A program made the position numbers and the translations under genes. Source: a virus. From it: DNA of 31,415 nucleotides. Shown piece after piece: positions 1 through 31,415 of the stretch. Within the stretch, counting starts at the first letter, position 1. Every line of letters begins with the position of its first letter. The notes under the pieces are model-generated. The model was given only the letters and a program-made list of their open reading frames with translations. It was not told the DNA's origin and ran no database searches. The stretch lies in the IMG/VR virus record IMGVR_UViG_3300017727_000080. The stretch is one strand, 5' to 3'.

Positions 1-123
1 GGTGTATTTAAACATAGATCAGAAACAAGCGAAACAGTAAGTAAGAACGAAGTAGATTATTTAGTAGATAAAGCTCGTGAATTTATGGAATATTATTCGA
101 GACGTTTCATTGATTTTATGTCA
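1..123. repeat. Terminal redundancy, left copy (identical to 31293-31415)
   Basis: Direct reading: ggtgtatttaaacatagatcag...cattgattttatgtca occurs at both ends of the window, 123/123 nt. The repeat lies inside an open reading frame. Confidence 0.9.
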
Positions 124-4690: not shown

Positions 4691-4860
4691 TGAGTTTACA
4701 GGATATGAAATTGTATGCAATTAATTTTTTAGCTTTCACGTTGAGTTTCACAAATATTGATATGGTGTTAAAAATAATACTACTTACAGTTACAATCCTG
4801 TACACAACTCACAAATGGTATTTAATGTATGAAGAAAATAAGCGAAAACATAAGCTATAA
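4690..4860 (+). CDS. Small membrane protein, holin-like (56 aa; not in the ORF track)
   Basis: ATG at 4690 overlaps the upstream TAA. Product: MSLQDMKLYAINFLAFTLSFTNIDMVLKIILLTVTILYTTHKWYLMYEENKRKHKL. It has two hydrophobic segments and a charged C-tail. It overlaps the start of the endolysin gene. Confidence 0.4.
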   Translation: MSLQDMKLYAINFLAFTLSFTNIDMVLKIILLTVTILYTTHKWYLMYEENKRKHKL

Positions 4861-5302
4861 GGAAGCAGTACGTTCCGAAACAGCAAAACGTTTAGGTATA
4901 TCAAATAAACCTAAAAAAGAACATATTGAAAATATGGAGTTAATAGCAGAAAAAATCTTTCAGCCATTAAGAGAATGGGTAGATCATCCTATAAGAATTA
5001 ACAGCTTTTATAGATCAGAAGAATTAAATTCAAGAATTGGTGGTGCTATTTCATCTGCTCATAAAGACGGTTTAGCTATTGATTTAGATTCTTTAGGTAA
5101 CAAAACTAATTTAGAAATGCTACACTACATAAAAGACAATCTTGACTTTGATATTTTAATTAATGAATATCCTAATGAAGAAGGCGAACCTAAATGGATT
5201 CACGTTAGTTGGAATAAAAAGAAAAACAGAAAACAAGTTTTAGAAATAAAACGCAAAGGCAGATACTACACTTATACAGGCGAATGTAAAAGCTGTAAAT
5301 GA
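4829..5302 (+). CDS. Endolysin, peptidase M15 family (zinc cell-wall peptidase)
   Basis: 157 aa. INSFYRSEELN...GGAISSAHKDGLAIDLD...WIHVSW reproduces the SxHxxGxAxD plus distal His zinc-ligand arrangement of M15 (VanY / T5-endolysin-like) peptidases. Confidence 0.75.
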   Translation: MKKISENISYKEAVRSETAKRLGISNKPKKEHIENMELIAEKIFQPLREWVDHPIRINSFYRSEELNSRIGGAISSAHKDGLAIDLDSLGNKTNLEMLHYIKDNLDFDILINEYPNEEGEPKWIHVSWNKKKNRKQVLEIKRKGRYYTYTGECKSCK

Positions 5303-5460
5303 AAAAAGTAGAATTTGCTATAATTGAAAGATTTGCTCTTGGCATATTAATTGGTTTTAGTTATTTGCCAGAAGATGAGCATACTGACTTTACAGAGTTA
5401 AACATTTATGTAGTATTTATAGTATTACATTTTAAATTTTATAATAATGCCGATACCTAA
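5299..5460 (+). CDS. Small hydrophobic protein (53 aa; not in the ORF track)
   Basis: ATG at 5299 forms an ATGA overlap with the endolysin stop. Product: MKKVEFAIIERFALGILIGFSYLPEDEHTDFTELNIYVVFIVLHFKFYNNADT, with two short hydrophobic stretches. It overlaps the next start. Confidence 0.35.
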   Translation: MKKVEFAIIERFALGILIGFSYLPEDEHTDFTELNIYVVFIVLHFKFYNNADT

Positions 5461-5884
5461 AAAAAAGCAAGGAGAACAACAAAAGAATTTTATGATGCGT
5501 TGTGTTCCAGAACTTATGAAATACCACGATAAAGACCAAGCAATAGCAATGTGTTATGATGCTTTTAAGGGTTCGGTAGAATTAGAATCATATAATGACT
5601 ACCCACAAGGTGCAGTAAACAACGCTAAACGTGCTTTAAAATGGGTAGAAAAAAATGGATGGGGTTCTTGTGGAGAAGCAACAGGAAAAAAAAGAGCATC
5701 ACAAATAGCAAAAAAACAAAACATAACAAGAGATACTATAGCAAGAATGGCATCATTTAAAAGACATCAACAACATAAAGATGTACCATACACAGAAGGG
5801 TGTGGGGGTCTTATGTGGGATGCTTGGGGTGGTTCTGCTGGTATTAACTGGGCAATAAACAAACTCAAACAAATAGACAAATAA
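5447..5884 (+). CDS. Conserved phage protein of unknown function
   Basis: 145 aa. Motifs NNAKRALKW...GKKRASQIAKKQNITRDTIARMASFKRH...WDAWGGSAG resemble a domain I recall near capsid-morphogenesis genes in other phages. No function is known to me. Confidence 0.55.
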   Translation: MPIPKKKQGEQQKNFMMRCVPELMKYHDKDQAIAMCYDAFKGSVELESYNDYPQGAVNNAKRALKWVEKNGWGSCGEATGKKRASQIAKKQNITRDTIARMASFKRHQQHKDVPYTEGCGGLMWDAWGGSAGINWAINKLKQIDK

Positions 5885-6193
5885 ATGGCAACAAAGATTA
5901 GTGAAGATACTAACGTACAATTAGATTTAAAAACTATTGCAATGATTGTAGGAGGTGCAGTATCTCTTGCAAGTATGTGGTTTACATTACAAGGCGAAAT
6001 ATCTGATTTACAAAATAAGATAGATTCTTTTAGTGGAGATGAATTTGTACAAAGAATGGAGTTTCAGCTTAAAGACGAATTAATACGTTCTAACGTTATA
6101 CAAATAGATAACCTCACAAAAAATTTAAAAGAGGATATACAAGAAAATAAAGAATCAATTAAAGATTTAGAAATTAAAGTATTTAGAAGATGA
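5885..6193 (+). CDS. N-terminally anchored coiled-coil membrane protein (i-spanin-like topology)
   Basis: 102 aa. Single TM segment (TIAMIVGGAVSLASMWFTL) followed by a charged helical region. ATGA overlap with the next ORF, which carries a signal peptide. Confidence 0.45.
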   Translation: MATKISEDTNVQLDLKTIAMIVGGAVSLASMWFTLQGEISDLQNKIDSFSGDEFVQRMEFQLKDELIRSNVIQIDNLTKNLKEDIQENKESIKDLEIKVFRR

Positions 6194-6510
6194 AACATTT
6201 ACTATATGTTCTTTTTGTATTATTGGTGTGTTCTTTAAATGCACAAGAAACAACCGTTCTACAAATTAATGCAAAATGGAATTATAAAAACAATTATGAT
6301 TTATCAAGCATAAAAAATGCTGTAATTAAATTTAGTTATTTAAAAGACCAACCAGCAGACATAAGAAAAAACATAACAGCAGTTCCAGTAATTGCTATAA
6401 TAGATAAAAATGGTAAAGTTAGAATGCAGTATGTAGCTGACCTATCATTTAAAATACAAGCTACAAAACAACAAATACAAGAAACAGTTAACATTATATC
6501 AAAAGAATAA
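6190..6510 (+). CDS. Secreted or lipoprotein candidate with a degenerate thioredoxin-like fold (o-spanin position)
   Basis: 106 aa. N-terminal signal sequence MKHLLYVLFVLLVCSLNAQ. The body, VLQINAKWNYKN...AVPVIAIIDKNGKV, follows the thioredoxin-fold pattern but has WNYKN where WCxxC would be. Confidence 0.4.
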   Translation: MKHLLYVLFVLLVCSLNAQETTVLQINAKWNYKNNYDLSSIKNAVIKFSYLKDQPADIRKNITAVPVIAIIDKNGKVRMQYVADLSFKIQATKQQIQETVNIISKE

Positions 6511-6512
6511 TT

Positions 6513-6650
6513 ATGGAATTTATAAAACATCTTTTTGGTTTATGTGGCGAAAGTCATCTAAACATTTTTACAATAATAATAACACTAATTATATTAAAAA
6601 TAAGTTATGAAAAATATTTTAGCAAAACTATTTGGAGGAGCAGGAGGTAG
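6513..6650 (+). CDS. Possible 45-aa membrane miniprotein (not in the ORF track)
   Basis: ATG 3 nt after the upstream stop. Product: MEFIKHLFGLCGESHLNIFTIIITLIILKISYEKYFSKTIWRSRR, with one hydrophobic segment. It overlaps the 6607 ORF by 44 nt. Confidence 0.25.
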   Translation: MEFIKHLFGLCGESHLNIFTIIITLIILKISYEKYFSKTIWRSRR

Positions 6651-7014
6651 TATAGCAGAAAAAATATCTGGTATTATAGACAAACATACTTTTAGTAAAG
6701 TTGAAAAAGCTCAATTTGAAAAAGAGATGGAGGAGATATTTATAAAAGCTGAACTTGATTTAGAAAAAGAAATAACAAATCGTCACGCTGCAGATATGGC
6801 TTCTGATAGTTTCTTGTCAAAGAATATACGCCCTATGCTTACTATATTTTCTTTAGTTCTATATACTCTATTTGCTTTAATAGACGGTAACATAGGAGAA
6901 TTTAACATAGCTAATCAGTATGTAGACTTGCTTGGTCAGATAGTTATAATGAGTTTAGGGTTTTACTTTACATCAAGAGGTATAGAAAAAACAGCAAAGA
7001 TCATTAAGAAATAA
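6607..7014 (+). CDS. Holin candidate, GTA_holin_3TM-like
   Basis: 135 aa. The N-terminus LFGGAGGSIAEKISGIIDK, the helical EKEME...NRHAADMASDSFLSKNIRP segment, the hydrophobic segments and the terminal SRGIEKTAK follow the layout I recall for the 'holin of 3TMs for gene-transfer release' family. Confidence 0.55.
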   Translation: MKNILAKLFGGAGGSIAEKISGIIDKHTFSKVEKAQFEKEMEEIFIKAELDLEKEITNRHAADMASDSFLSKNIRPMLTIFSLVLYTLFALIDGNIGEFNIANQYVDLLGQIVIMSLGFYFTSRGIEKTAKIIKK

Positions 7015-7148
7015 TGGCTAAAGGAATTAATATAAACACATATAAGAGCAAATCAAAGAAGCGTAAAGGAATACACGCTAAAAGTAAAATGAGTGCCTTA
7101 AAAAGCTCTAAAAACTATTTTAAGAAATATAAAGGTCAAGGTAAATAA
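7014..7148 (+). CDS. Very basic 44-aa protein (not in the ORF track)
   Basis: ATG overlaps the upstream TAA (TAATG). Product: MAKGININTYKSKSKKRKGIHAKSKMSALKSSKNYFKKYKGQGK, about 36% K/R. It is the last ORF before the large non-coding gap. Confidence 0.35.
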   Translation: MAKGININTYKSKSKKRKGIHAKSKMSALKSSKNYFKKYKGQGK

Positions 7149-7156
7149 TATTTTTA

Positions 7157-7164
7157 TATATTTG
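7157..7164 (+). promoter_or_regulatory. TAnnTTTG box (Bacteroidota -7-type promoter element)
   Basis: TATATTTG is an exact match to the TAnnTTTG consensus. It lies at the start of the 7149-7302 intergenic gap. I saw no clear -33 TTTG. Confidence 0.3.
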
Positions 7165-7249
7165 TTTGGCTTATAGCAAAACTTGCACAACCTAATAAAG
7201 ATGGACGGTGCTTGGAACAGGTAATTAAATTATTTCTTTTTTGTAGGCT

Positions 7250-7295
7250 TTTTTCTTTCTTTTTCTTTTTGTCCTTTTTCTTTTTCTTTCTTTTT
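7250..7295. repeat. Perfect homopyrimidine/homopurine mirror repeat (21-nt arms, 4-nt spacer): H-DNA motif
   Basis: The left arm, 7250-7270, read backwards equals the right arm, 7275-7295, read forwards (TTTTTCTTTTTCTTTCTTTTT). The spacer is gtcc. Bases 7248-7295 are 47/48 pyrimidines on the + strand. Confidence 0.95.
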
Positions 7296-7302
7296 AGTTA
7301 TT

Positions 7303-7425
7303 ATGAATTGTATAAAATGTAAATACAAAATGCTATATTTAGGTAGTAATCAAAATGGTTATTATTACTTGTGTAGTAAATGCAATAACGTTATACCTAC
7401 AAATGAAAAAATTAACAAGAAGTAA
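7303..7425 (+). CDS. Zinc-ribbon miniprotein, CxxC-N17-CxxC (40 aa; not in the ORF track)
   Basis: Product: MNCIKCKYKMLYLGSNQNGYYYLCSKCNNVIPTNEKINKK. It has the same Cys spacing and 11/27 identities with the 33-aa ORF at 17169-17270. It is the first ORF after the intergenic gap. Confidence 0.5.
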   Translation: MNCIKCKYKMLYLGSNQNGYYYLCSKCNNVIPTNEKINKK

Positions 7426-7792
7426 ACTAATTAAAAAACTTGACAAAGTATTTAGTTTATATATTAGACAACGTTATGCTAAAAACGAAATAGCTCAATG
7501 CTTTACTTGTGGCAAAAAAAATCATTGGAAAAAATTACAATGTGGTCATTTTCAAAGTCGTAAATATTATTCTACTCGTTGGGATAAAATAAATTGTCAA
7601 GTACAATGTGCAAAATGCAATGTCTTTAATTATGGAGAATCTTATGTGTTTGGTAAAAATCTTGATATGGAATTTGGAGAAGGGTGTGCTGAATCACTTT
7701 ATTTAAAAGCAAAACAAATAACTAAATTCTCCACACCTGAAATTCACGAGTTAATAAATCGTTATAATATGTTAATAAAAGAGTTAAACTAA
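7403..7792 (+). CDS. ninG: NinG/Rap-like recombination protein
   Basis: CFTCGKKNHWKKLQCGHFQSRKYYSTRWDKINCQVQCAKCNVFNYGE matches the Cys/His pattern of the lambda NinG family. I prefer the internal ATG at 7403 (MKKLTRSKL...) to the track start at 7355. The upstream 48 nt overlap the zinc-ribbon ORF and encode an implausible hydrophobic leader. Confidence 0.7.
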   Translation: MKKLTRSKLIKKLDKVFSLYIRQRYAKNEIAQCFTCGKKNHWKKLQCGHFQSRKYYSTRWDKINCQVQCAKCNVFNYGESYVFGKNLDMEFGEGCAESLYLKAKQITKFSTPEIHELINRYNMLIKELN

Positions 7793-9074: not shown

Positions 9075-9917
9075 ATGCAATTAAGATTAGACGAACAACA
9101 AACAGTACAATATCTTGCAATGCAATCAATAGAAGAAGATTGTACAATAGATGTAAATGAAAAATTAGAATATCCTCCAGTAGCATTGTCTTTTGGAGAA
9201 ACATTAATAAAAGGAAGAAATAAAGATATGCTTTTACCAATACCCTTAGGAACTTATGGGAACTTTAGTTTTATACAAGCTCCTCCAAAGACTAAAAAGA
9301 CATTCTTTATATCATTACTTGCATCAGTTTACTTATCAGACCAAAATCATTTCGGAGGTAATTTAAAAGGACATAGACAAGGCAAAGAGTTAATACACAT
9401 AGATACAGAACAAGGTCGGTGGCATTGTCAAAGAGTATTTAAAAGAATTGCTGAAATGGCGGGAACATCAGACAACTACTTGACTTATGGTTTAAGAACT
9501 ATTGGTTATAAAGACAGAATTGAATTTATAGATTATTGTTTAGAACATAAAGCTAAAAATGCTGGTTTACTTATTGTAGATGGTATTGCAGACTTATGTG
9601 CAGACGTTAATAACATTGAAGAATCTAATGCTTGTGTTCAAAGACTTATGGAATGGTCATCTAAATATAACATACATATTATGTGCGTGATACATTCTAA
9701 CTTTGGAAGTGATAAACCTACAGGTCATCTTGGAAGTTTTTTAGAAAAAAAAGCAGAACTACAAATACAATTAGAAGCAAACACAGTTAATAAAGAATGG
9801 ATAACAGTTAAATGCAAAAGAAGCAGAGGTTATGCGTTTGAGACATTTAGTTTTAAGGTAAATGAAATGGAACTACCTGAAATCATTGGGGATTTATATG
9901 ACCCTTTGGAAAACTAA
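9075..9917 (+). CDS. RecA-fold ATPase (DnaB-C-terminal / RepA / AAA_25-like replicative helicase candidate)
   Basis: 280 aa. P-loop-like QAPPKTKKTFF, which is atypical (A-x4-K-K-T). HIDTEQG. Walker B LLIVDGIADL. IMCVIHSNFGSDKPTGHLGS resembles the sensor region of RepA/DnaB-type ATPases. Confidence 0.55.
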   Translation: MQLRLDEQQTVQYLAMQSIEEDCTIDVNEKLEYPPVALSFGETLIKGRNKDMLLPIPLGTYGNFSFIQAPPKTKKTFFISLLASVYLSDQNHFGGNLKGHRQGKELIHIDTEQGRWHCQRVFKRIAEMAGTSDNYLTYGLRTIGYKDRIEFIDYCLEHKAKNAGLLIVDGIADLCADVNNIEESNACVQRLMEWSSKYNIHIMCVIHSNFGSDKPTGHLGSFLEKKAELQIQLEANTVNKEWITVKCKRSRGYAFETFSFKVNEMELPEIIGDLYDPLEN

Positions 9918-11622: not shown

Positions 11623-12336
11623 ATGATATTGTTAATAGACGCAGACAGCTTAATTTTCGCAAGTTGTTACAGAACAAGAAATGAAGAAAACCAAGACCCT
11701 TACTATAGAGACATAGAAGATTCTATTGTAAAGTTTGATGAACAGTTTATGAAGATTGTAAATGATCTTGAAGAAAAATACGAAATAGACAAAGTGATTA
11801 CATTTAATGGAAGCAAAGGAAACTTTAGAAAAATACTAACACCAGTATATAAAGCAAACAGAAAAAAACAAGAGTTACCTCCATTACTACACGATATGCA
11901 CCAATACGTTAAAGATACATACGACAGTAAATTTGTATATGGATTAGAAACTGATGATCTTGTAGCTAAATACTGGCAAACACTATCAAATGAATTTGGA
12001 AGGGATAATGTAATGATTGTAAGCATAGACAAGGATTATAAACAATTCCCTTGTTTAATGTATAACTATCACTATAAACATAGAGTAGTATTAGACATAA
12101 GTGAACAGGAAGCATTATACAACTTTTATGAACAAATGATAGTAGGAGATACAGCAGACAACGTAAACTACTTTAAAGGTAAAGGTAAAAAGTTTGCAGA
12201 AAAATATTTTCAAGATTGCAAAAGTAAATATCAATACACTAAAAGACTATACGAATTATTTAAACAAGAATACAAAGGTAAGGCAAGACAGAAATACGCA
12301 GAATGTTATAACCTATTAAAATTAAGAAATGATTAA
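11623..12336 (+). CDS. 5'-3' exonuclease / flap endonuclease (PIN-like, Pol I N-terminal type)
   Basis: 237 aa. ILLIDADSLIF, GLETDDLVAKYW, MIVSIDKDYKQF and IVGDTADNV correspond to the acidic metal-binding motifs of FEN/T5-D15-type exonucleases. Confidence 0.7.
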   Translation: MILLIDADSLIFASCYRTRNEENQDPYYRDIEDSIVKFDEQFMKIVNDLEEKYEIDKVITFNGSKGNFRKILTPVYKANRKKQELPPLLHDMHQYVKDTYDSKFVYGLETDDLVAKYWQTLSNEFGRDNVMIVSIDKDYKQFPCLMYNYHYKHRVVLDISEQEALYNFYEQMIVGDTADNVNYFKGKGKKFAEKYFQDCKSKYQYTKRLYELFKQEYKGKARQKYAECYNLLKLRND

Positions 12337-12859
12337 AGAAAACAAATGGTTTGTTCAAAACGAGATAGCAGAAAAAGTAATAGAACTATCAGGTATTAAT
12401 ATTTTTGAAAGATCAAGAAAAAGAGAAGTAGTAGAAATGAGATCGTTATTCTTCTACATATTAAAAAACAAATTAGATATGGGATTGACTGAAATGTCAA
12501 GATACTTTGAAGATAGTGCTTCAAGTATAAACCACGCTACTATTATATGGGCATTAAAAAACTATGAACTATATAAGTCTACAAATAAAAGAATACAAGA
12601 AATAGAAGAAATGATTATTCTAAAAACTTCTATGAATATAAAAGGAATAAACAGGGAAACTTATTTAGAACTTAAATGTAAAGAACTTGAAGCAGAAATA
12701 GAAAGACTAAATACAAAACCAAATGAATCTAAAATAATAGACTTAATAAATCAAGTTCCAAAAGCAAGAGAAGGAGAATTTATTACAAGAATTGAATTAA
12801 TGATTAAGGGGTGGGAATGGCAGTATAGAGATAGCACAACAGCTTATGCAGGGGAATAA
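12329..12859 (+). CDS. DnaA domain-IV-like helix-turn-helix protein
   Basis: 176 aa. RKREVVEMRSLFFYILKNKLDMGLTEMSRYFEDSASSINHATIIWALKNYE parallels the DnaA C-terminal DNA-binding domain pattern (R..i...R.iamYl.....S...IG..f...HsTV). Confidence 0.5.
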   Translation: MIKENKWFVQNEIAEKVIELSGINIFERSRKREVVEMRSLFFYILKNKLDMGLTEMSRYFEDSASSINHATIIWALKNYELYKSTNKRIQEIEEMIILKTSMNIKGINRETYLELKCKELEAEIERLNTKPNESKIIDLINQVPKAREGEFITRIELMIKGWEWQYRDSTTAYAGE

Positions 12860-30995: not shown

Positions 30996-31415
30996 ATGGC
31001 AACAGCATTATTTATAAATAGAACCGATTTAGTTAGAAATTCCATAATAGATGGCAACGTAGATACTGATAAATTTATACAGTTTATTAAGATAGCTCAA
31101 GAAATAGATATACAAAACTATACGGGTACAGACTTATATAATAAAATATCTACATTAATTGCTAATGGAGAAATTGATGACGTAGCTAATGCTAAATATA
31201 AAACATTACTTAACACATATTTACAACCAATGTTGATCTGGGCAGCTCAAGTATATTATATTCCATTTGCAAGTTATGCTATAAAAAATGGTGGTGTATT
31301 TAAACATAGATCAGAAACAAGCGAAACAGTAAGTAAGAACGAAGTAGATTATTTAGTAGATAAAGCTCGTGAATTTATGGAATATTATTCGAGACGTTTC
31401 ATTGATTTTATGTCA
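30996..31415 (+). CDS. Head-tail adaptor-like protein, 5' part (continues at 1-216 through the wrap; not in the ORF track)
   Basis: ATG at 30996, open to the window end (140 codons). NVDTDKFIQFIKIAQEIDIQNYTGTDLYNKI resembles the gp6-type head-tail connector pattern. Confidence 0.5.
   Translation, partial: MATALFINRTDLVRNSIIDGNVDTDKFIQFIKIAQEIDIQNYTGTDLYNKISTLIANGEIDDVANAKYKTLLNTYLQPMLIWAAQVYYIPFASYAIKNGGVFKHRSETSETVSKNEVDYLVDKAREFMEYYSRRFIDFMS
31293..31415. repeat. Terminal redundancy, right copy (identical to 1-123)
   Basis: See 1-123. Confidence 0.9.

What the first reader, a model, noticed from the sequence alone, without database searches (positions are those of the whole stretch)
7250..7295. 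Perfect 21+21 nt homopyrimidine mirror repeat (H-DNA/triplex motif) in the main intergenic gap, 8 nt upstream of the first early gene
TTTTTCTTTCTTTTTCTTTTT-gtcc-TTTTTCTTTTTCTTTCTTTTT is an exact mirror repeat, not an inverted repeat. It lies within a 48-nt tract that is 47/48 pyrimidine on the coding strand. Homopurine-homopyrimidine mirror repeats are the classical requirement for intramolecular triplex (H-DNA) formation under negative supercoiling.

It lies in the largest non-coding region (7149-7302), at the boundary between the end of the late/lysis genes and the start of the early genes. That boundary is a natural place for a replication origin, a packaging or recombination signal, or a transcription barrier.

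At the RNA level the same tract would be a long U/C-rich leader ending just before ATG 7303. This would suit S1-dependent, Shine-Dalgarno-independent translation initiation.
Basis: seen in the sequence. Interest (0 to 1): 0.62.

Follow-up and report, generated by a model that had tools for sequence, protein, structure and literature searches.

The report
Selected triplex-type mirror repeat in phages
A perfectly mirror-symmetric run of T's and C's between the late and early genes of a marine flavobacterial phage stays mirror-symmetric in dozens of related phages through matching changes on both arms. That is the signature of a three-stranded (H-DNA-type) helix, and the run always follows a promoter and a small folded RNA, so it is a real functional element whose job is still untested.

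Summary
7250-7270 / GTCC / 7275-7295 is an exact 21+21 pyrimidine mirror repeat. The next-best mirror in the window has 10-nt arms, and the longest in 100 simulations had 13.

In 62 distinct related elements from IMG/VR phages, 29 arm pairs with 24 T-block patterns keep mirror symmetry through compensatory changes:
- 97% mirror identity.
- 79 of 94 non-T columns matched, against about 10% when partners are shuffled.
- No signal as a direct repeat or in slid registers.

No purine partner exists elsewhere in five phage genomes, so the partner is the complementary strand. This is an H-DNA-type triplex constraint.

New findings:
- The tract is the 3' module of an autonomous cassette: Bacteroidetes -7 box (7157-7164), a pseudoknotted RNA-like domain with strong covariation (7169-7224), a short third T/C tract that also mirrors arm 1 (7233-7242), then the arms.
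- The cassette is inverted in place in one clade, so it is not simply a translation leader.

Function is inferred, not shown. I favour a transcription-coupled triplex (H-loop) serving as a replication or recombination start; a terminator/insulator role is the main rival.

The scan has noted comparable symmetric H-motifs on other DNA.

The parts
7157..7164 (+). Bacteroidetes sigma-A type -7 box TATATTTG (consensus TAnnTTTG); predicted start of transcription about 7169
   Evidence: Sequence. A TAnnTTT[GA] box lies within 70 nt upstream of the conserved AACTT motif in 55 of 62 distinct elements. The consensus and its position (-12 to -5) are from PMC9723704. Transcription itself is inferred, not shown.
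7169..7224 (+). Conserved RNA-like domain. It has a mini-hairpin GCT-TAT-AGC (7169-7177), invariant AAACTT (7179-7184), helix P2 GCAC/GTGC (7185-7188 with 7208-7211) and invariant TTGGAACAGGTAA (7212-7224). In other clades a longer P1 hairpin plus pseudoknot replaces the mini-hairpin.
   Evidence: Covariation: 99.4% of cells paired, 35 cells changed on both sides, score 0.553 against 0.200 in shuffles (0/500). Covariance model R1 hits 7169-7224. G-U wobbles fall on the + strand (sequences). No Rfam family matches.
7233..7242 (+). Third pyrimidine tract Y0 (TTTCTTTTTT), a perfect 10-nt mirror of the outer part of arm 1 (7249-7258)
   Evidence: 10+10 mirror 7233-7242 / 7249-7258 with a 6-nt spacer. 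Across 47 distinct elements its first T block equals the outer block of arm 1 in 40 (shuffle mean 17.5, maximum 27). The first two blocks are equal in 27 (shuffle mean 7.1, maximum 15).
7243..7248 (+). G-containing linker GTAGGC. In most other clades this is a run of 3-7 G.
   Evidence: a G run of 3 or more lies within 12 nt upstream of arm 1 in 36 of 62 elements.
7250..7270 (+). Arm 1 of the homopyrimidine mirror repeat (T5 C T3 C T5 C T5; T7249 extends the outer block to T6)
7271..7274 (+). Non-symmetric loop GTCC
   Evidence: Loops of 3-6 nt occur in nearly all elements: GTCC 26, ACTC 8, GGTTAC 8 and others.
7275..7295 (+). Arm 2, the exact reverse of arm 1; followed by A+T-rich sequence and ATG 7303
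7017..7148 (+). Gene for a 43-aa very basic protein (ends ...KKYKGQGK*), last gene of the late block, abutting the cassette. Possibly linked to it, possibly only a neighbour.
   Evidence: A ...GQG..* gene end lies next to the element in 30 of 62 cases: 21 upstream on the same strand and 9 downstream and convergent. No Pfam or PHROG family matches.

Best explanation
The 21+21 mirror repeat is a selected H-motif. Its two T/C arms must both be able to pair with one purine strand, one by Watson-Crick pairs and the other by parallel Hoogsteen T.A*T and C+.G*C triplets. The only purine strand that co-varies with the arms is the complementary DNA strand at the same site.

The repeat is the 3' module of an autonomous, single-copy cassette in roughly 31-kb marine Flavobacteriia siphophages. 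The cassette order is: host-type promoter, about 55-90 nt of pseudoknotted RNA, short tract Y0, G-rich linker, arm 1, 3-6 nt loop, arm 2.

Proposed mechanism (inferred):
1. RNA polymerase starting at about 7169 transcribes the tract with the T/C strand as non-template strand.
2. Behind or within the bubble the freed arm-2 strand folds back onto the arm-1 duplex (the H-y3 form). Negative supercoiling in the wake helps. A+T-rich DNA on the arm-2 side also helps, as does a G/C clamp on the arm-1 side in most clades.
3. This stalls or ends transcription on a very weak rU:dA hybrid.
4. It leaves the purine template strand of arm 2 unpaired or hybridised to the U-rich RNA end (an 'H-loop').
5. I propose that this three-stranded site at the late/early boundary is where the phage starts DNA replication or recombination-dependent replication, as an RNA primer or an entry site for its SSB, annealase or helicase.

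My own odds:
- Triplex-type pairing is the selected property: about 0.8.
- It acts together with transcription of the cassette: about 0.6.
- The replication/recombination-start role: about 0.3.

The confidence given for this entry (0.45) is for the statement as a whole, weighted towards its first two parts.
For: Shown:
- The mirror is exact and far beyond chance for the window.
- A sample anchored only on the upstream RNA motif gave 62 distinct elements. Nearly all have perfect mirror arms of 18-27 nt.
- Among 29 distinct arm pairs (24 block patterns), mirror identity is 97.1%. Non-T columns match in 79 of 94 cases, against a mean of 9.6% (maximum 21.6%) in 2000 partner shuffles. The direct-repeat reading gives 16/165, and slid registers give 0-3 of about 170.
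- The same result with the pair-counting tool after complementing arm 2 in silico: 97.3% of cells 'paired', 17 of 18 positions changed on both sides, 79 double-change cells against 15.6 +/- 3.1 (0/500).
- The C's are always isolated: 0 CC dinucleotides in 2572 arm nucleotides. From my own knowledge this is the arrangement most favourable for C+ triplets.
- A non-symmetric loop of 3-6 nt is kept, as a fold-back needs.
- There is no purine partner elsewhere in the window or in four further phage records, three of them 99-100% complete.
- A second, independent mirror relation links Y0 and arm 1.
- The promoter box and the covarying RNA fold lie directly upstream.
- The cassette is inverted in place between the same neighbours in the L199 clade, and is antisense or divergent in L352, L159, L311 and L363.
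- No iteron cluster or other origin-like repeat is found in the early region. PHROGs and Pfam scans of the main ORFs of at least 90 aa found no DNA polymerase or primase. They found only an AAA_25 protein, a weak DnaA_C-like HTH, an SSB-like protein, an exonuclease and NinG.

From the literature (PMC11667243):
- H-DNA needs homopurine/homopyrimidine mirror repeats.
- Negative supercoiling behind RNA polymerase promotes it.
- A triplex of the non-template strand with the upstream duplex traps RNA polymerase.
- An H-y triplex forms at neutral pH when the pyrimidine strand is the non-template strand.
- H-loops exist.
Against: - No physical evidence of a triplex, of the transcript, of an R-loop or of replication initiation was available.
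- RNA:DNA hybrids with a homopyrimidine RNA are the weakest kind (PMC11667243), so an R-loop primer is not the obvious expectation.
- In the window only 7 nt separate arm 2 from ATG 7303. Transcription must therefore read through at least part of the time for the early genes to be expressed.
- Mirrored purines (G in both arms of L336, A in both arms of L339/L321) do not give known favourable triplets.
- Y0 often has G or A where arm 1 has C.
- L047 keeps the RNA domain but lacks the mirror tract, and some NinG-bearing relatives lack the whole cassette within the DNA fetched around NinG (up to about 3 kb on each side). The cassette is therefore not indispensable for this phage type.
- The phage has a possible DnaA_C-like DNA-binding protein, which could point to a conventional protein-recognised origin elsewhere.
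Confidence: 0.45

Rival explanations
1. Triplex-based transcription stop. The H-motif is the terminator (or leaky attenuator) and 3'-end former of a small phage RNA whose functional part is the pseudoknotted domain. It also serves as an insulator that keeps late-operon transcription out of the early block. It has no role in replication.
For: - The element sits exactly between the last late gene and the early block, in either orientation.
- In the L199 clade arm 2 ends about 10 nt from the stop codon of a convergent gene, and there is no hairpin terminator for either transcript.
- In L047, which lacks the mirror tract, the RNA domain is followed by a weak hairpin plus T run and a G6/C6 hairpin, as if a conventional stop replaced it.
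- A non-template-strand triplex traps RNA polymerase (PMC11667243).
- The long rU:dA hybrid resembles the U tract of intrinsic terminators (own knowledge).
Against: - In the window and its close relatives the early genes start 7-45 nt after arm 2 with no room for another promoter. An efficient stop would silence them.
- The model does not explain why a phage would keep an elaborate mirror structure plus Y0 and a G run instead of an ordinary hairpin terminator.
- No RNA data are available.
Confidence: 0.25
2. RNA-level clamp. The transcript's two U/C arms fold around a purine-rich single strand in trans (host or phage RNA or ssDNA) as a U.A-U triple helix, like an ENE clamp. Alternatively the transcript binds the phage duplex as a third strand. 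The DNA itself never forms H-DNA.
For: - The tract is always on the RNA-like strand, downstream of a conserved promoter and a folded RNA domain.
- Mirror symmetry is also exactly the condition for a pyrimidine transcript to act as Hoogsteen strand on its own gene (inference).
- From my recollection of the literature (Roberts and Crothers 1992, which PMC11667243 cites in another connection), RNA third strands on DNA purine strands are stable.
Against: - Block patterns differ widely between related phages, so a trans target would have to co-vary. Yet no matching purine tract exists in the window or in four other phage records except the element's own opposite strand.
- A linear third-strand mode needs no loop, but a non-symmetric loop of 3-6 nt is always kept.
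- There is no A-rich partner within the cassette.
Confidence: 0.12
3. The tract is a long unstructured U/C-rich 5' leader that recruits ribosomal protein S1 for Shine-Dalgarno-independent translation of the first early gene.
For: - In the window the tract ends 7 nt before ATG 7303.
- In WIN-type relatives an ORF starts 7-45 nt downstream.
- The tract is predicted to be unpaired as RNA.
Against: - S1 binding does not require mirror symmetry, so it cannot explain the compensatory changes.
- The cassette is inverted or stands without a downstream ORF in the L199 clade, L352 and L159.
- Bacteroidetes initiation uses A-rich, unstructured leaders, not U-rich ones (PMC6847099).
Confidence: 0.04
4. 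Protein-recognition site. The tract is bound, as DNA or RNA, by a phage protein such as the adjacent 43-aa basic protein, terminase, or the DnaA_C-like or AAA_25 proteins. The symmetry reflects the protein's binding mode.
For: - The small basic protein gene abuts the element in 30 of 62 cases and follows it through the inversion.
- The invariant motifs AAACTT and TTGGNNCAGNTAA could be protein contacts.
Against: - Two-fold symmetric proteins select inverted or direct repeats, not mirror repeats (established structural logic).
- The arm sequences are free to vary as long as they stay mirrored, unlike a sequence-specific site.
- 32 of 62 elements have no such neighbouring gene.
- In a DTR-classed complete relative the element is about 10 kb from the record's ends, which speaks against a packaging end.
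Confidence: 0.05
5. Neutral low-complexity DNA. The tract is a (T5C)n-like microsatellite whose symmetry is accidental or a by-product of slippage.
For: - Tandem Repeats Finder calls a CTTTTT period.
- In the human genome long mirror repeats derive from tandem-repeat expansion (PMC12214015).
- For the single window sequence the mirror block order has a 1 in 4 chance (enumeration described in the observation check).
Against: - 24 different non-periodic block patterns are all mirrored, with 79 compensatory cells against 15.6 expected.
- The non-symmetric loop is kept.
- No known mutational process copies a change to the mirror position.
- The position next to a conserved promoter and RNA fold is fixed across very divergent phages.
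Confidence: 0.01

Closest known systems
H-DNA-forming H-motifs (homopurine/homopyrimidine mirror repeats such as (GA)n, (GAA)n of FXN, and the c-MYC promoter element; review PMC11667243)
   Same: One strand is all pyrimidine. The mirror symmetry is exact around a short loop. Arms are about 20 nt. The pyrimidine strand is the non-template strand of a transcribed region, the arrangement reported to form H-y triplexes and trap RNA polymerase.
   Different: It is not a tandem repeat: the T-block patterns are aperiodic, whereas long human mirror repeats derive from tandem-repeat expansion (PMC12214015). It is T-rich with isolated C's. It is single copy. It is kept symmetric by compensatory changes across a phage lineage. 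It is physically coupled to a promoter, a folded RNA domain and a third mirrored tract. Triplex formation is not shown here.
R-loop/primer origins: ColE1 RNA II, phage T4 ori(uvsY)/oriF, mitochondrial LSP-CSBII (own knowledge; mitochondrial R-loop reviewed in PMC6582354)
   Same: A promoter is followed by a structured transcript, a G run on the non-template strand and an easily unwound A+T-rich stretch. The element sits in the main control region, and its orientation relative to neighbouring genes does not matter.
   Different: The RNA over the tract would be pyrimidine-rich, which gives weak hybrids. Stabilisation would have to come from Hoogsteen pairing. No priming, RNase H site or origin activity has been shown. 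This is a resemblance in layout, not membership.
Intrastrand triplex repeats of prokaryotes (BoxC / PIT / ITxF motifs; Holder et al. 2015, PMC4666352)
   Same: These are conserved triplex-compatible motifs in bacterial and phage DNA with co-varying tracts.
   Different: Those carry the purine tract and both pyrimidine tracts on one strand, so a single strand can fold into a triplex, and they are multi-copy dispersed repeats. Here all three tracts on the strand are pyrimidine, no purine tract lies on the same strand, and the element is single copy.
RNA triple helices of the ENE type (PAN, MALAT1) (own knowledge)
   Same: Two U-rich strands in antiparallel arrangement could clamp a purine strand by U.A-U triples.
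   Different: There is no A-rich partner in cis or anywhere in the phage genomes. Only a 3-6 nt loop, with no stem, lies between the arms.
Earlier notes of this scan on other DNA: mirror pyrimidine repeat at the end of a CPZ-55-type E. coli prophage (e1-073405), and mirror purine/pyrimidine arms between divergent promoters of a ~100-kb phage, read as origin-like (e1-1983068)
   Same: They are phage or prophage non-coding H-motifs reported to stay symmetric through matching changes. One lies next to strong promoters.
   Different: The sequences and hosts are unrelated, and no attached RNA domain was reported. I did not re-test those notes.

Membership tests
H-motif (sequence capable of H-DNA) | Homopurine/homopyrimidine strand asymmetry over the whole repeat | tested here: met
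   47/48 pyrimidine in 7248-7295. Non-pyrimidine bases are 26 of 2572 arm nucleotides across 62 elements.
H-motif (sequence capable of H-DNA) | Mirror (not inverted, not direct) symmetry of the two halves around a short spacer | tested here: met
   Exact 21+21 around GTCC. The symmetry is conserved with compensatory changes. Direct-repeat and slid readings fail.
H-motif (sequence capable of H-DNA) | Arms long enough for a stable triplex (about 15 nt or more) | tested here: met
   Arms are 18-27 nt in all 62 elements.
H-motif (sequence capable of H-DNA) | Actual supercoil-dependent transition to a triplex (nuclease or chemical hyper-reactivity, 2D gels) | not testable with these tools
   Needs bench work on supercoiled DNA.
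R-loop/primer-type replication origin (ColE1, T4 ori, mtDNA) | A promoter whose transcript runs into the origin | tested here: inconclusive
R-loop/primer-type replication origin (ColE1, T4 ori, mtDNA) | A persistent RNA-DNA hybrid and DNA synthesis starting at its 3' end | not testable with these tools
   Would need RNase H / S9.6 assays and mapping of nascent strands.
Intrastrand triplex repeats (BoxC/PIT/ITxF) | Purine tract and two matching pyrimidine tracts (or the converse) on the same strand | tested here: not met
   There is no purine tract on the + strand near the element or anywhere in the window. All three tracts are pyrimidine.
Intrastrand triplex repeats (BoxC/PIT/ITxF) | Multi-copy dispersed repeat family within a genome | tested here: not met
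   There is a single copy in the window and in four other phage records. Two copies occur in one bacterial single-cell genome.
Known RNA families (Rfam 15) | Match to a curated covariance model at gathering score | tested here: not met
   Only two chance-level hits (E 1.4 and 3.3, far below gathering) in 6800-7600.

The most novel reading that the evidence does not exclude
The cassette is a new kind of phage replication origin. In it a pseudoknotted primer RNA locks onto the purine template strand not by an ordinary R-loop but as a triple helix. One U/C arm pairs by Watson-Crick pairs and the mirrored arm (RNA, or the displaced DNA strand) pairs by Hoogsteen pairs. The short Y0 tract acts as an early, transient third strand. 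This would be the first natural system in which Hoogsteen pairing is documented by sequence covariation and used to make a primer.
Probability: 0.2. Interest if true: 0.9.

Novelty: new variant of a known kind. Interest (0 to 1): 0.72.

Why it matters
Whether H-DNA-type triplexes are used by living systems, rather than merely tolerated as sources of instability, is an old open question. Almost all evidence comes from expandable tandem repeats in eukaryotes.

Here a non-repetitive H-motif is kept mirror-symmetric by dozens of compensatory changes in a large group of ocean phages. It does so twice within one element, and it is welded to a promoter and a covarying RNA fold.

That is evolutionary evidence for selection on Hoogsteen-type pairing, comparable to the covariation used to prove RNA helices. 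Natural single and double mutants are already in hand: L005 against L336, and the window against L019.

The question therefore becomes directly testable with plasmids, in vitro transcription and, if a host is found, phage genetics. The work also defines an RNA motif with no match in Rfam 15 for Bacteroidota phages.

Tried and rejected
1. BLAST of the region and of the cassette against 50,697 deposited phage genomes found no relative with the element. Distant hits to Flavobacterium and Tenacibaculum phages lie in a neighbouring gene only. The one Flavobacterium phage region I fetched has no long T/C tract.
2. A pattern anchored on the inner arms alone was too unspecific, giving mostly Lys-rich coding DNA on the other strand. 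It still served as a negative control: the outer blocks were mirrored only in true elements.
3. A pattern scan of bacterial genomes and of 401 genomes of one class found only one single-cell Bacteroidetes genome with true copies. The element is therefore not a host housekeeping RNA.
4. Pairing of the loop with the G-rich linker is rejected. GGAC/GTCC looked promising, but L331 and L411 share the linker and differ in the loop.
5. A trans purine partner is rejected.
6. MAFFT misaligned the full element, so the covariance model was built from the 5' domain only. Its weaker hits in pattern-only loci were coding-region noise.
7. The gene-neighbourhood analysis only showed that most carriers belong to one phage group: holin, M15 lysin, sigma factor, SSB-like protein, AAA_25, NinG.
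8. No iterons were found elsewhere in the early region.
Full report
**What is there.** Positions 7250-7270 (TTTTTCTTTCTTTTTCTTTTT), 7271-7274 (GTCC) and 7275-7295 (TTTTTCTTTTTCTTTCTTTTT) form an exact mirror repeat. The stretch 7248-7295 is 47/48 pyrimidine, and ATG 7303 follows after 7 nt. It is by far the longest mirror in the window: arms of 21 nt against 10 for the next best, and against a maximum of 13 in 100 simulations.

The arms are built of T blocks separated by single C's. Because of that, the mirror order of the blocks alone has a chance of 1 in 4 (my enumeration of the block orders). The single sequence therefore proves little, and the decisive evidence is comparative.

**Context.**
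- The window is a complete phage genome of about 31.3 kb with a 123-nt terminal overlap. All genes lie on one strand.
- The gene order is: tail fibre, M15 endolysin and holin (4829-7014), a 43-aa basic protein (7017-7148), the gap, a 40-aa CxxC miniprotein and NinG (7303-7792). After these come an SSB-like protein, an AAA_25 protein, a sigma factor, an exonuclease, a weak DnaA_C-like HTH protein, methyltransferases, terminase and structural genes.
- The only distant relatives among deposited phages infect Flavobacterium and Tenacibaculum.
- The gap is 154 nt. It is one of the larger gaps but not strictly the largest.

**The mirror symmetry is under selection.** NinG relatives in IMG/VR (80 loci, 98-55% protein identity) mostly carry a T/C tract upstream. 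The block patterns of the two arms change together. For example, the window has 5,3,5,5 | 5,5,3,5, while L019 has 5,3,3,5 | 5,3,3,5.

To avoid conditioning on the arms, I sampled again with a pattern that uses only the conserved upstream motif. This gave 62 distinct true elements. Almost all have perfect mirror arms of 18-27 nt around a non-symmetric loop of 3-6 nt. One striking case is L352: TCTTTTTCTTCTTTTCTCTTTG ccg GTTTCTCTTTTCTTCTTTTTCT.

Over 29 distinct arm pairs (24 block patterns):
- Mirror identity is 97.1%.
- 79 of 94 columns holding a non-T base match, against 9.6% on average (maximum 21.6%) when partners are shuffled.
- Reading the arms as direct repeats gives 16/165. Sliding the register gives 0-3 of about 170.

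I repeated the count with the pair-counting tool after complementing arm 2 in silico, so that mirror identity reads as a base pair:
- 97.3% of cells are 'paired'.
- 17 of 18 positions changed on both sides.
- There are 79 double-change cells against 15.6 +/- 3.1 in shuffles (0 of 500).
- Nothing appears in slid registers.

Relatedness of the sequences inflates such numbers. Even so, two dozen different aperiodic patterns cannot be inherited symmetry.

**Why this points to a triplex.** Two segments of one strand that must be the reverse of each other end up base-for-base opposite when the strand folds back. T opposite T and C opposite C is not a duplex. It is what is needed if both segments pair with one purine strand, one antiparallel by Watson-Crick pairs and one parallel by Hoogsteen pairs.

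Protein dimers select inverted or direct repeats, and no mutational process copies a change to the mirror position. Other features fit a fold-back:
- The C's are never adjacent: 0 CC dinucleotides in 2572 arm nucleotides.
- A short non-symmetric loop is always kept.

The purine partner must co-vary with every phage's pattern. No such tract exists elsewhere in the window. Nor does it exist in four other phage records, three of them 99-100% complete, except on the element's own opposite strand. The partner is therefore the complementary DNA strand, which is the definition of an H-motif (PMC11667243).

Unlike the long mirror repeats of the human genome, which come from tandem-repeat expansion (PMC12214015), this one is aperiodic.

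**The tract is part of a larger cassette.** Directly upstream lies a conserved Bacteroidetes sigma-A -7 box (TATATTTG 7157-7164).
- A TAnnTTT[GA] box is present in 55 of 62 elements.
- The consensus lies at -12 to -5 according to PMC9723704. This puts the transcription start near 7169.

An RNA-like domain follows. It has invariant AAACTT and TTGGNNCAGNTAA motifs flanking a helix P2 that changes by compensatory substitutions: GCAC/GTGC, CAGC/GCTG, CAAT/ATTG, GCAA/TTGC and others. In most clades there is also a hairpin P1 whose loop pairs with the segment just 5' of AAACTT (GTAA/TTAC, GCAA/TTGC, GTAG/CTAC, GCAG/CTGC, GAAC/GTTC). On 17 sequences:
- 99.4% of cells pair.
- 35 cells are changed on both sides.
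- The covariation score is 0.553 against 0.200 in shuffles (0 of 500).
- G-U wobbles fall on the + strand.

Rfam has nothing like it.

Between this domain and arm 1 lie a short T/C tract Y0 and a G-containing linker, which is a run of 3-7 G in 36 of 62 elements. Y0 is itself a mirror of the outer part of arm 1. In the window this is 10+10 exact, 7233-7242 against 7249-7258. In 47 elements the first block agrees in 40 (shuffles 17.5, maximum 27), and the first two blocks agree in 27 (shuffles 7.1, maximum 15).

So the element holds two mirror relations that share arm 1. The RNA domain and the tract go together in 62 of 63 cases. The exception is L047.

**Orientation and distribution.**
- In the L199-type clade the whole cassette lies between the same neighbours (small basic protein gene on one side, endolysin/ERF/SSB/AAA_25 block on the other) but is inverted. 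Its promoter points back at the late genes.
- In L352 it is antisense to all neighbours. In L159, L311 and L363 it sits in divergent regions.
- It is therefore an autonomous unit tied to the late/early boundary, not a leader for the first early gene.
- It is single copy per phage.
- It is about 10 kb from the record's ends in a DTR-classed complete relative, which argues against a packaging end.
- It is missing within the fetched DNA (up to about 3 kb each side of NinG) in some NinG-bearing relatives.
- In bacterial genomes I found it only in one single-cell Bacteroidetes genome. That genome has two copies in non-phage-looking surroundings.

**How it most likely works.**

Shown:
- The sequence constraint (mirror covariation, twice).
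- The RNA-fold covariation.
- The promoter box.
- The fixed strand relation: the pyrimidine strand is always the non-template strand.
- The independence of the cassette's orientation from its neighbours.

Inferred: polymerase starting near 7169 transcribes through Y0, arm 1 and arm 2. The freed non-template arm-2 strand folds back on the arm-1 duplex as an H-y3 triplex. Three things favour this: negative supercoiling behind the polymerase, the A+T-rich flank on the arm-2 side, and the G/C clamp on the arm-1 side.

The review PMC11667243 documents several relevant points:
- Such non-template-strand triplexes trap RNA polymerase.
- H-y triplexes form at neutral pH in this orientation.
- The unpaired purine half can hold the transcript as an 'H-loop'.

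I favour the view that this three-stranded site is the phage's start point for replication or recombination-dependent replication:
- The layout (promoter, structured RNA, G run, unwinding-prone stretch) recalls ColE1, T4 and mitochondrial primer origins.
- No other origin-like repeat was found.
- The PHROGs and Pfam scans of the main ORFs detected no polymerase or primase.

The main rival is a triplex-based terminator/insulator and 3'-end former for a small RNA. That reading fits the convergent arrangement in the L199 clade and the hairpins that replace the tract in L047. It sits badly with early genes starting 7 nt behind the tract in the window.

**What remains unexplained.**
- Purines are mirrored in both arms (G in L336, with single-arm G variants L005, L014 and L023; A in L339/L321). 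These are not known favourable triplets.
- Y0 often has G or A where arm 1 has C.
- The role of the invariant RNA motifs is unknown, as is the role of the small basic protein gene next to the element in 30 of 62 cases.

**Comparison and novelty.** As a sequence it meets every testable criterion of an H-motif. It fails the criteria of the intrastrand triplex repeats (BoxC/PIT/ITxF, PMC4666352), which carry the purine tract on the same strand and are multi-copy. It has no ENE-like A-rich partner.

I file it as a new variant of a known kind: a non-repetitive, evolutionarily maintained H-motif fused to a promoter and a structured RNA that has no Rfam match.

Earlier notes of this scan report comparable symmetric H-motifs at a CPZ-55-type prophage end and between divergent promoters of a ~100-kb phage. 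Two notes describe relatives of the present element in other windows. I did not re-test those, apart from seeing the A14/A15-type variant myself in L017 and L288.

Noticed in passing
window 7233-7258: Second perfect mirror: TTTCTTTTTT | GTAGGC | TTTTTTCTTT. The short upstream tract co-varies in block lengths with the outer part of arm 1 across relatives, often with G or A where arm 1 has C. Its role is unknown; it could be a competing or early third strand.
   Followed up: partly
window 7017-7148: A 43-aa very basic protein (MAKGINI...KKRKGIHAKSK...KKYKGQGK) with no family match. Its gene abuts the cassette in about half of the elements and stays next to it when the cassette is inverted (convergent in the L199 clade).
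   Followed up: partly
L047 1700-1880: A relative that keeps the promoter and RNA domain but has no mirror tract. Instead it carries TTCTTTGAAAAAAGAAAATATTTTC and a G6/C6 hairpin between two TATATTAGCTAA promoter-like boxes.
   Followed up: partly
G002 (single-cell Bacteroidetes genome AG-891-I06): C1:1223-1400 and C10:18230-18388 (L453, L552, L561): Two copies of the full cassette (arms 5,4,3,6 | 6,3,4,4) in a bacterial genome. They lie in surroundings without recognisable phage genes: surface proteins, an oxidoreductase, a NucS_C/PDDEXK + MrcB_N protein and a beta-lactamase-like gene. They could be a remnant, a small mobile element or a host copy.
   Followed up: partly
L336, L005/L014/L023, L339/L321 (arms): Purines occur at mirrored positions in both arms (G-G in L336, A-A in L339/L321). 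Single-arm G variants look like intermediates. Standard pyrimidine-motif triplets do not explain this.
   Followed up: no
L017 / L288 (relative of the window): Arm 2 is degenerated to T15 C T14 while arm 1 is intact. This may be a decayed element or a homopolymer assembly artefact. The same variant was noted by another reader of this scan.
   Followed up: no
window 1-123 and 31293-31415: The first and last 123 nt are identical, so the window is a complete, circularly assembled genome of about 31.3 kb.
   Followed up: yes
window 9075-9917 and 12329-12859: An AAA_25 (RecA/RepA-like) protein (E 1e-8) and a protein with a weak DnaA C-terminal HTH match (E 2e-6, below cutoff). These are possible replication proteins of a phage in which the scans found no polymerase or primase.
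   Followed up: no
L383, L342, L331 (spacer between CAGNTAA and Y0): The spacer often contains ATTGAA / TTTGAA, which could pair with the 5' strand of P2 (TTCAATAG/CTATTGAA is 8 bp in L383). This hints at an alternative helix, but I did not test it for covariation.
   Followed up: no
L004, L030, L039, L311 (contig ends): Several metagenome contigs begin or end within about 100 nt of the tract. The likely cause is assembly breaking at the low-complexity run. A real DNA end cannot be excluded without reads.
   Followed up: no
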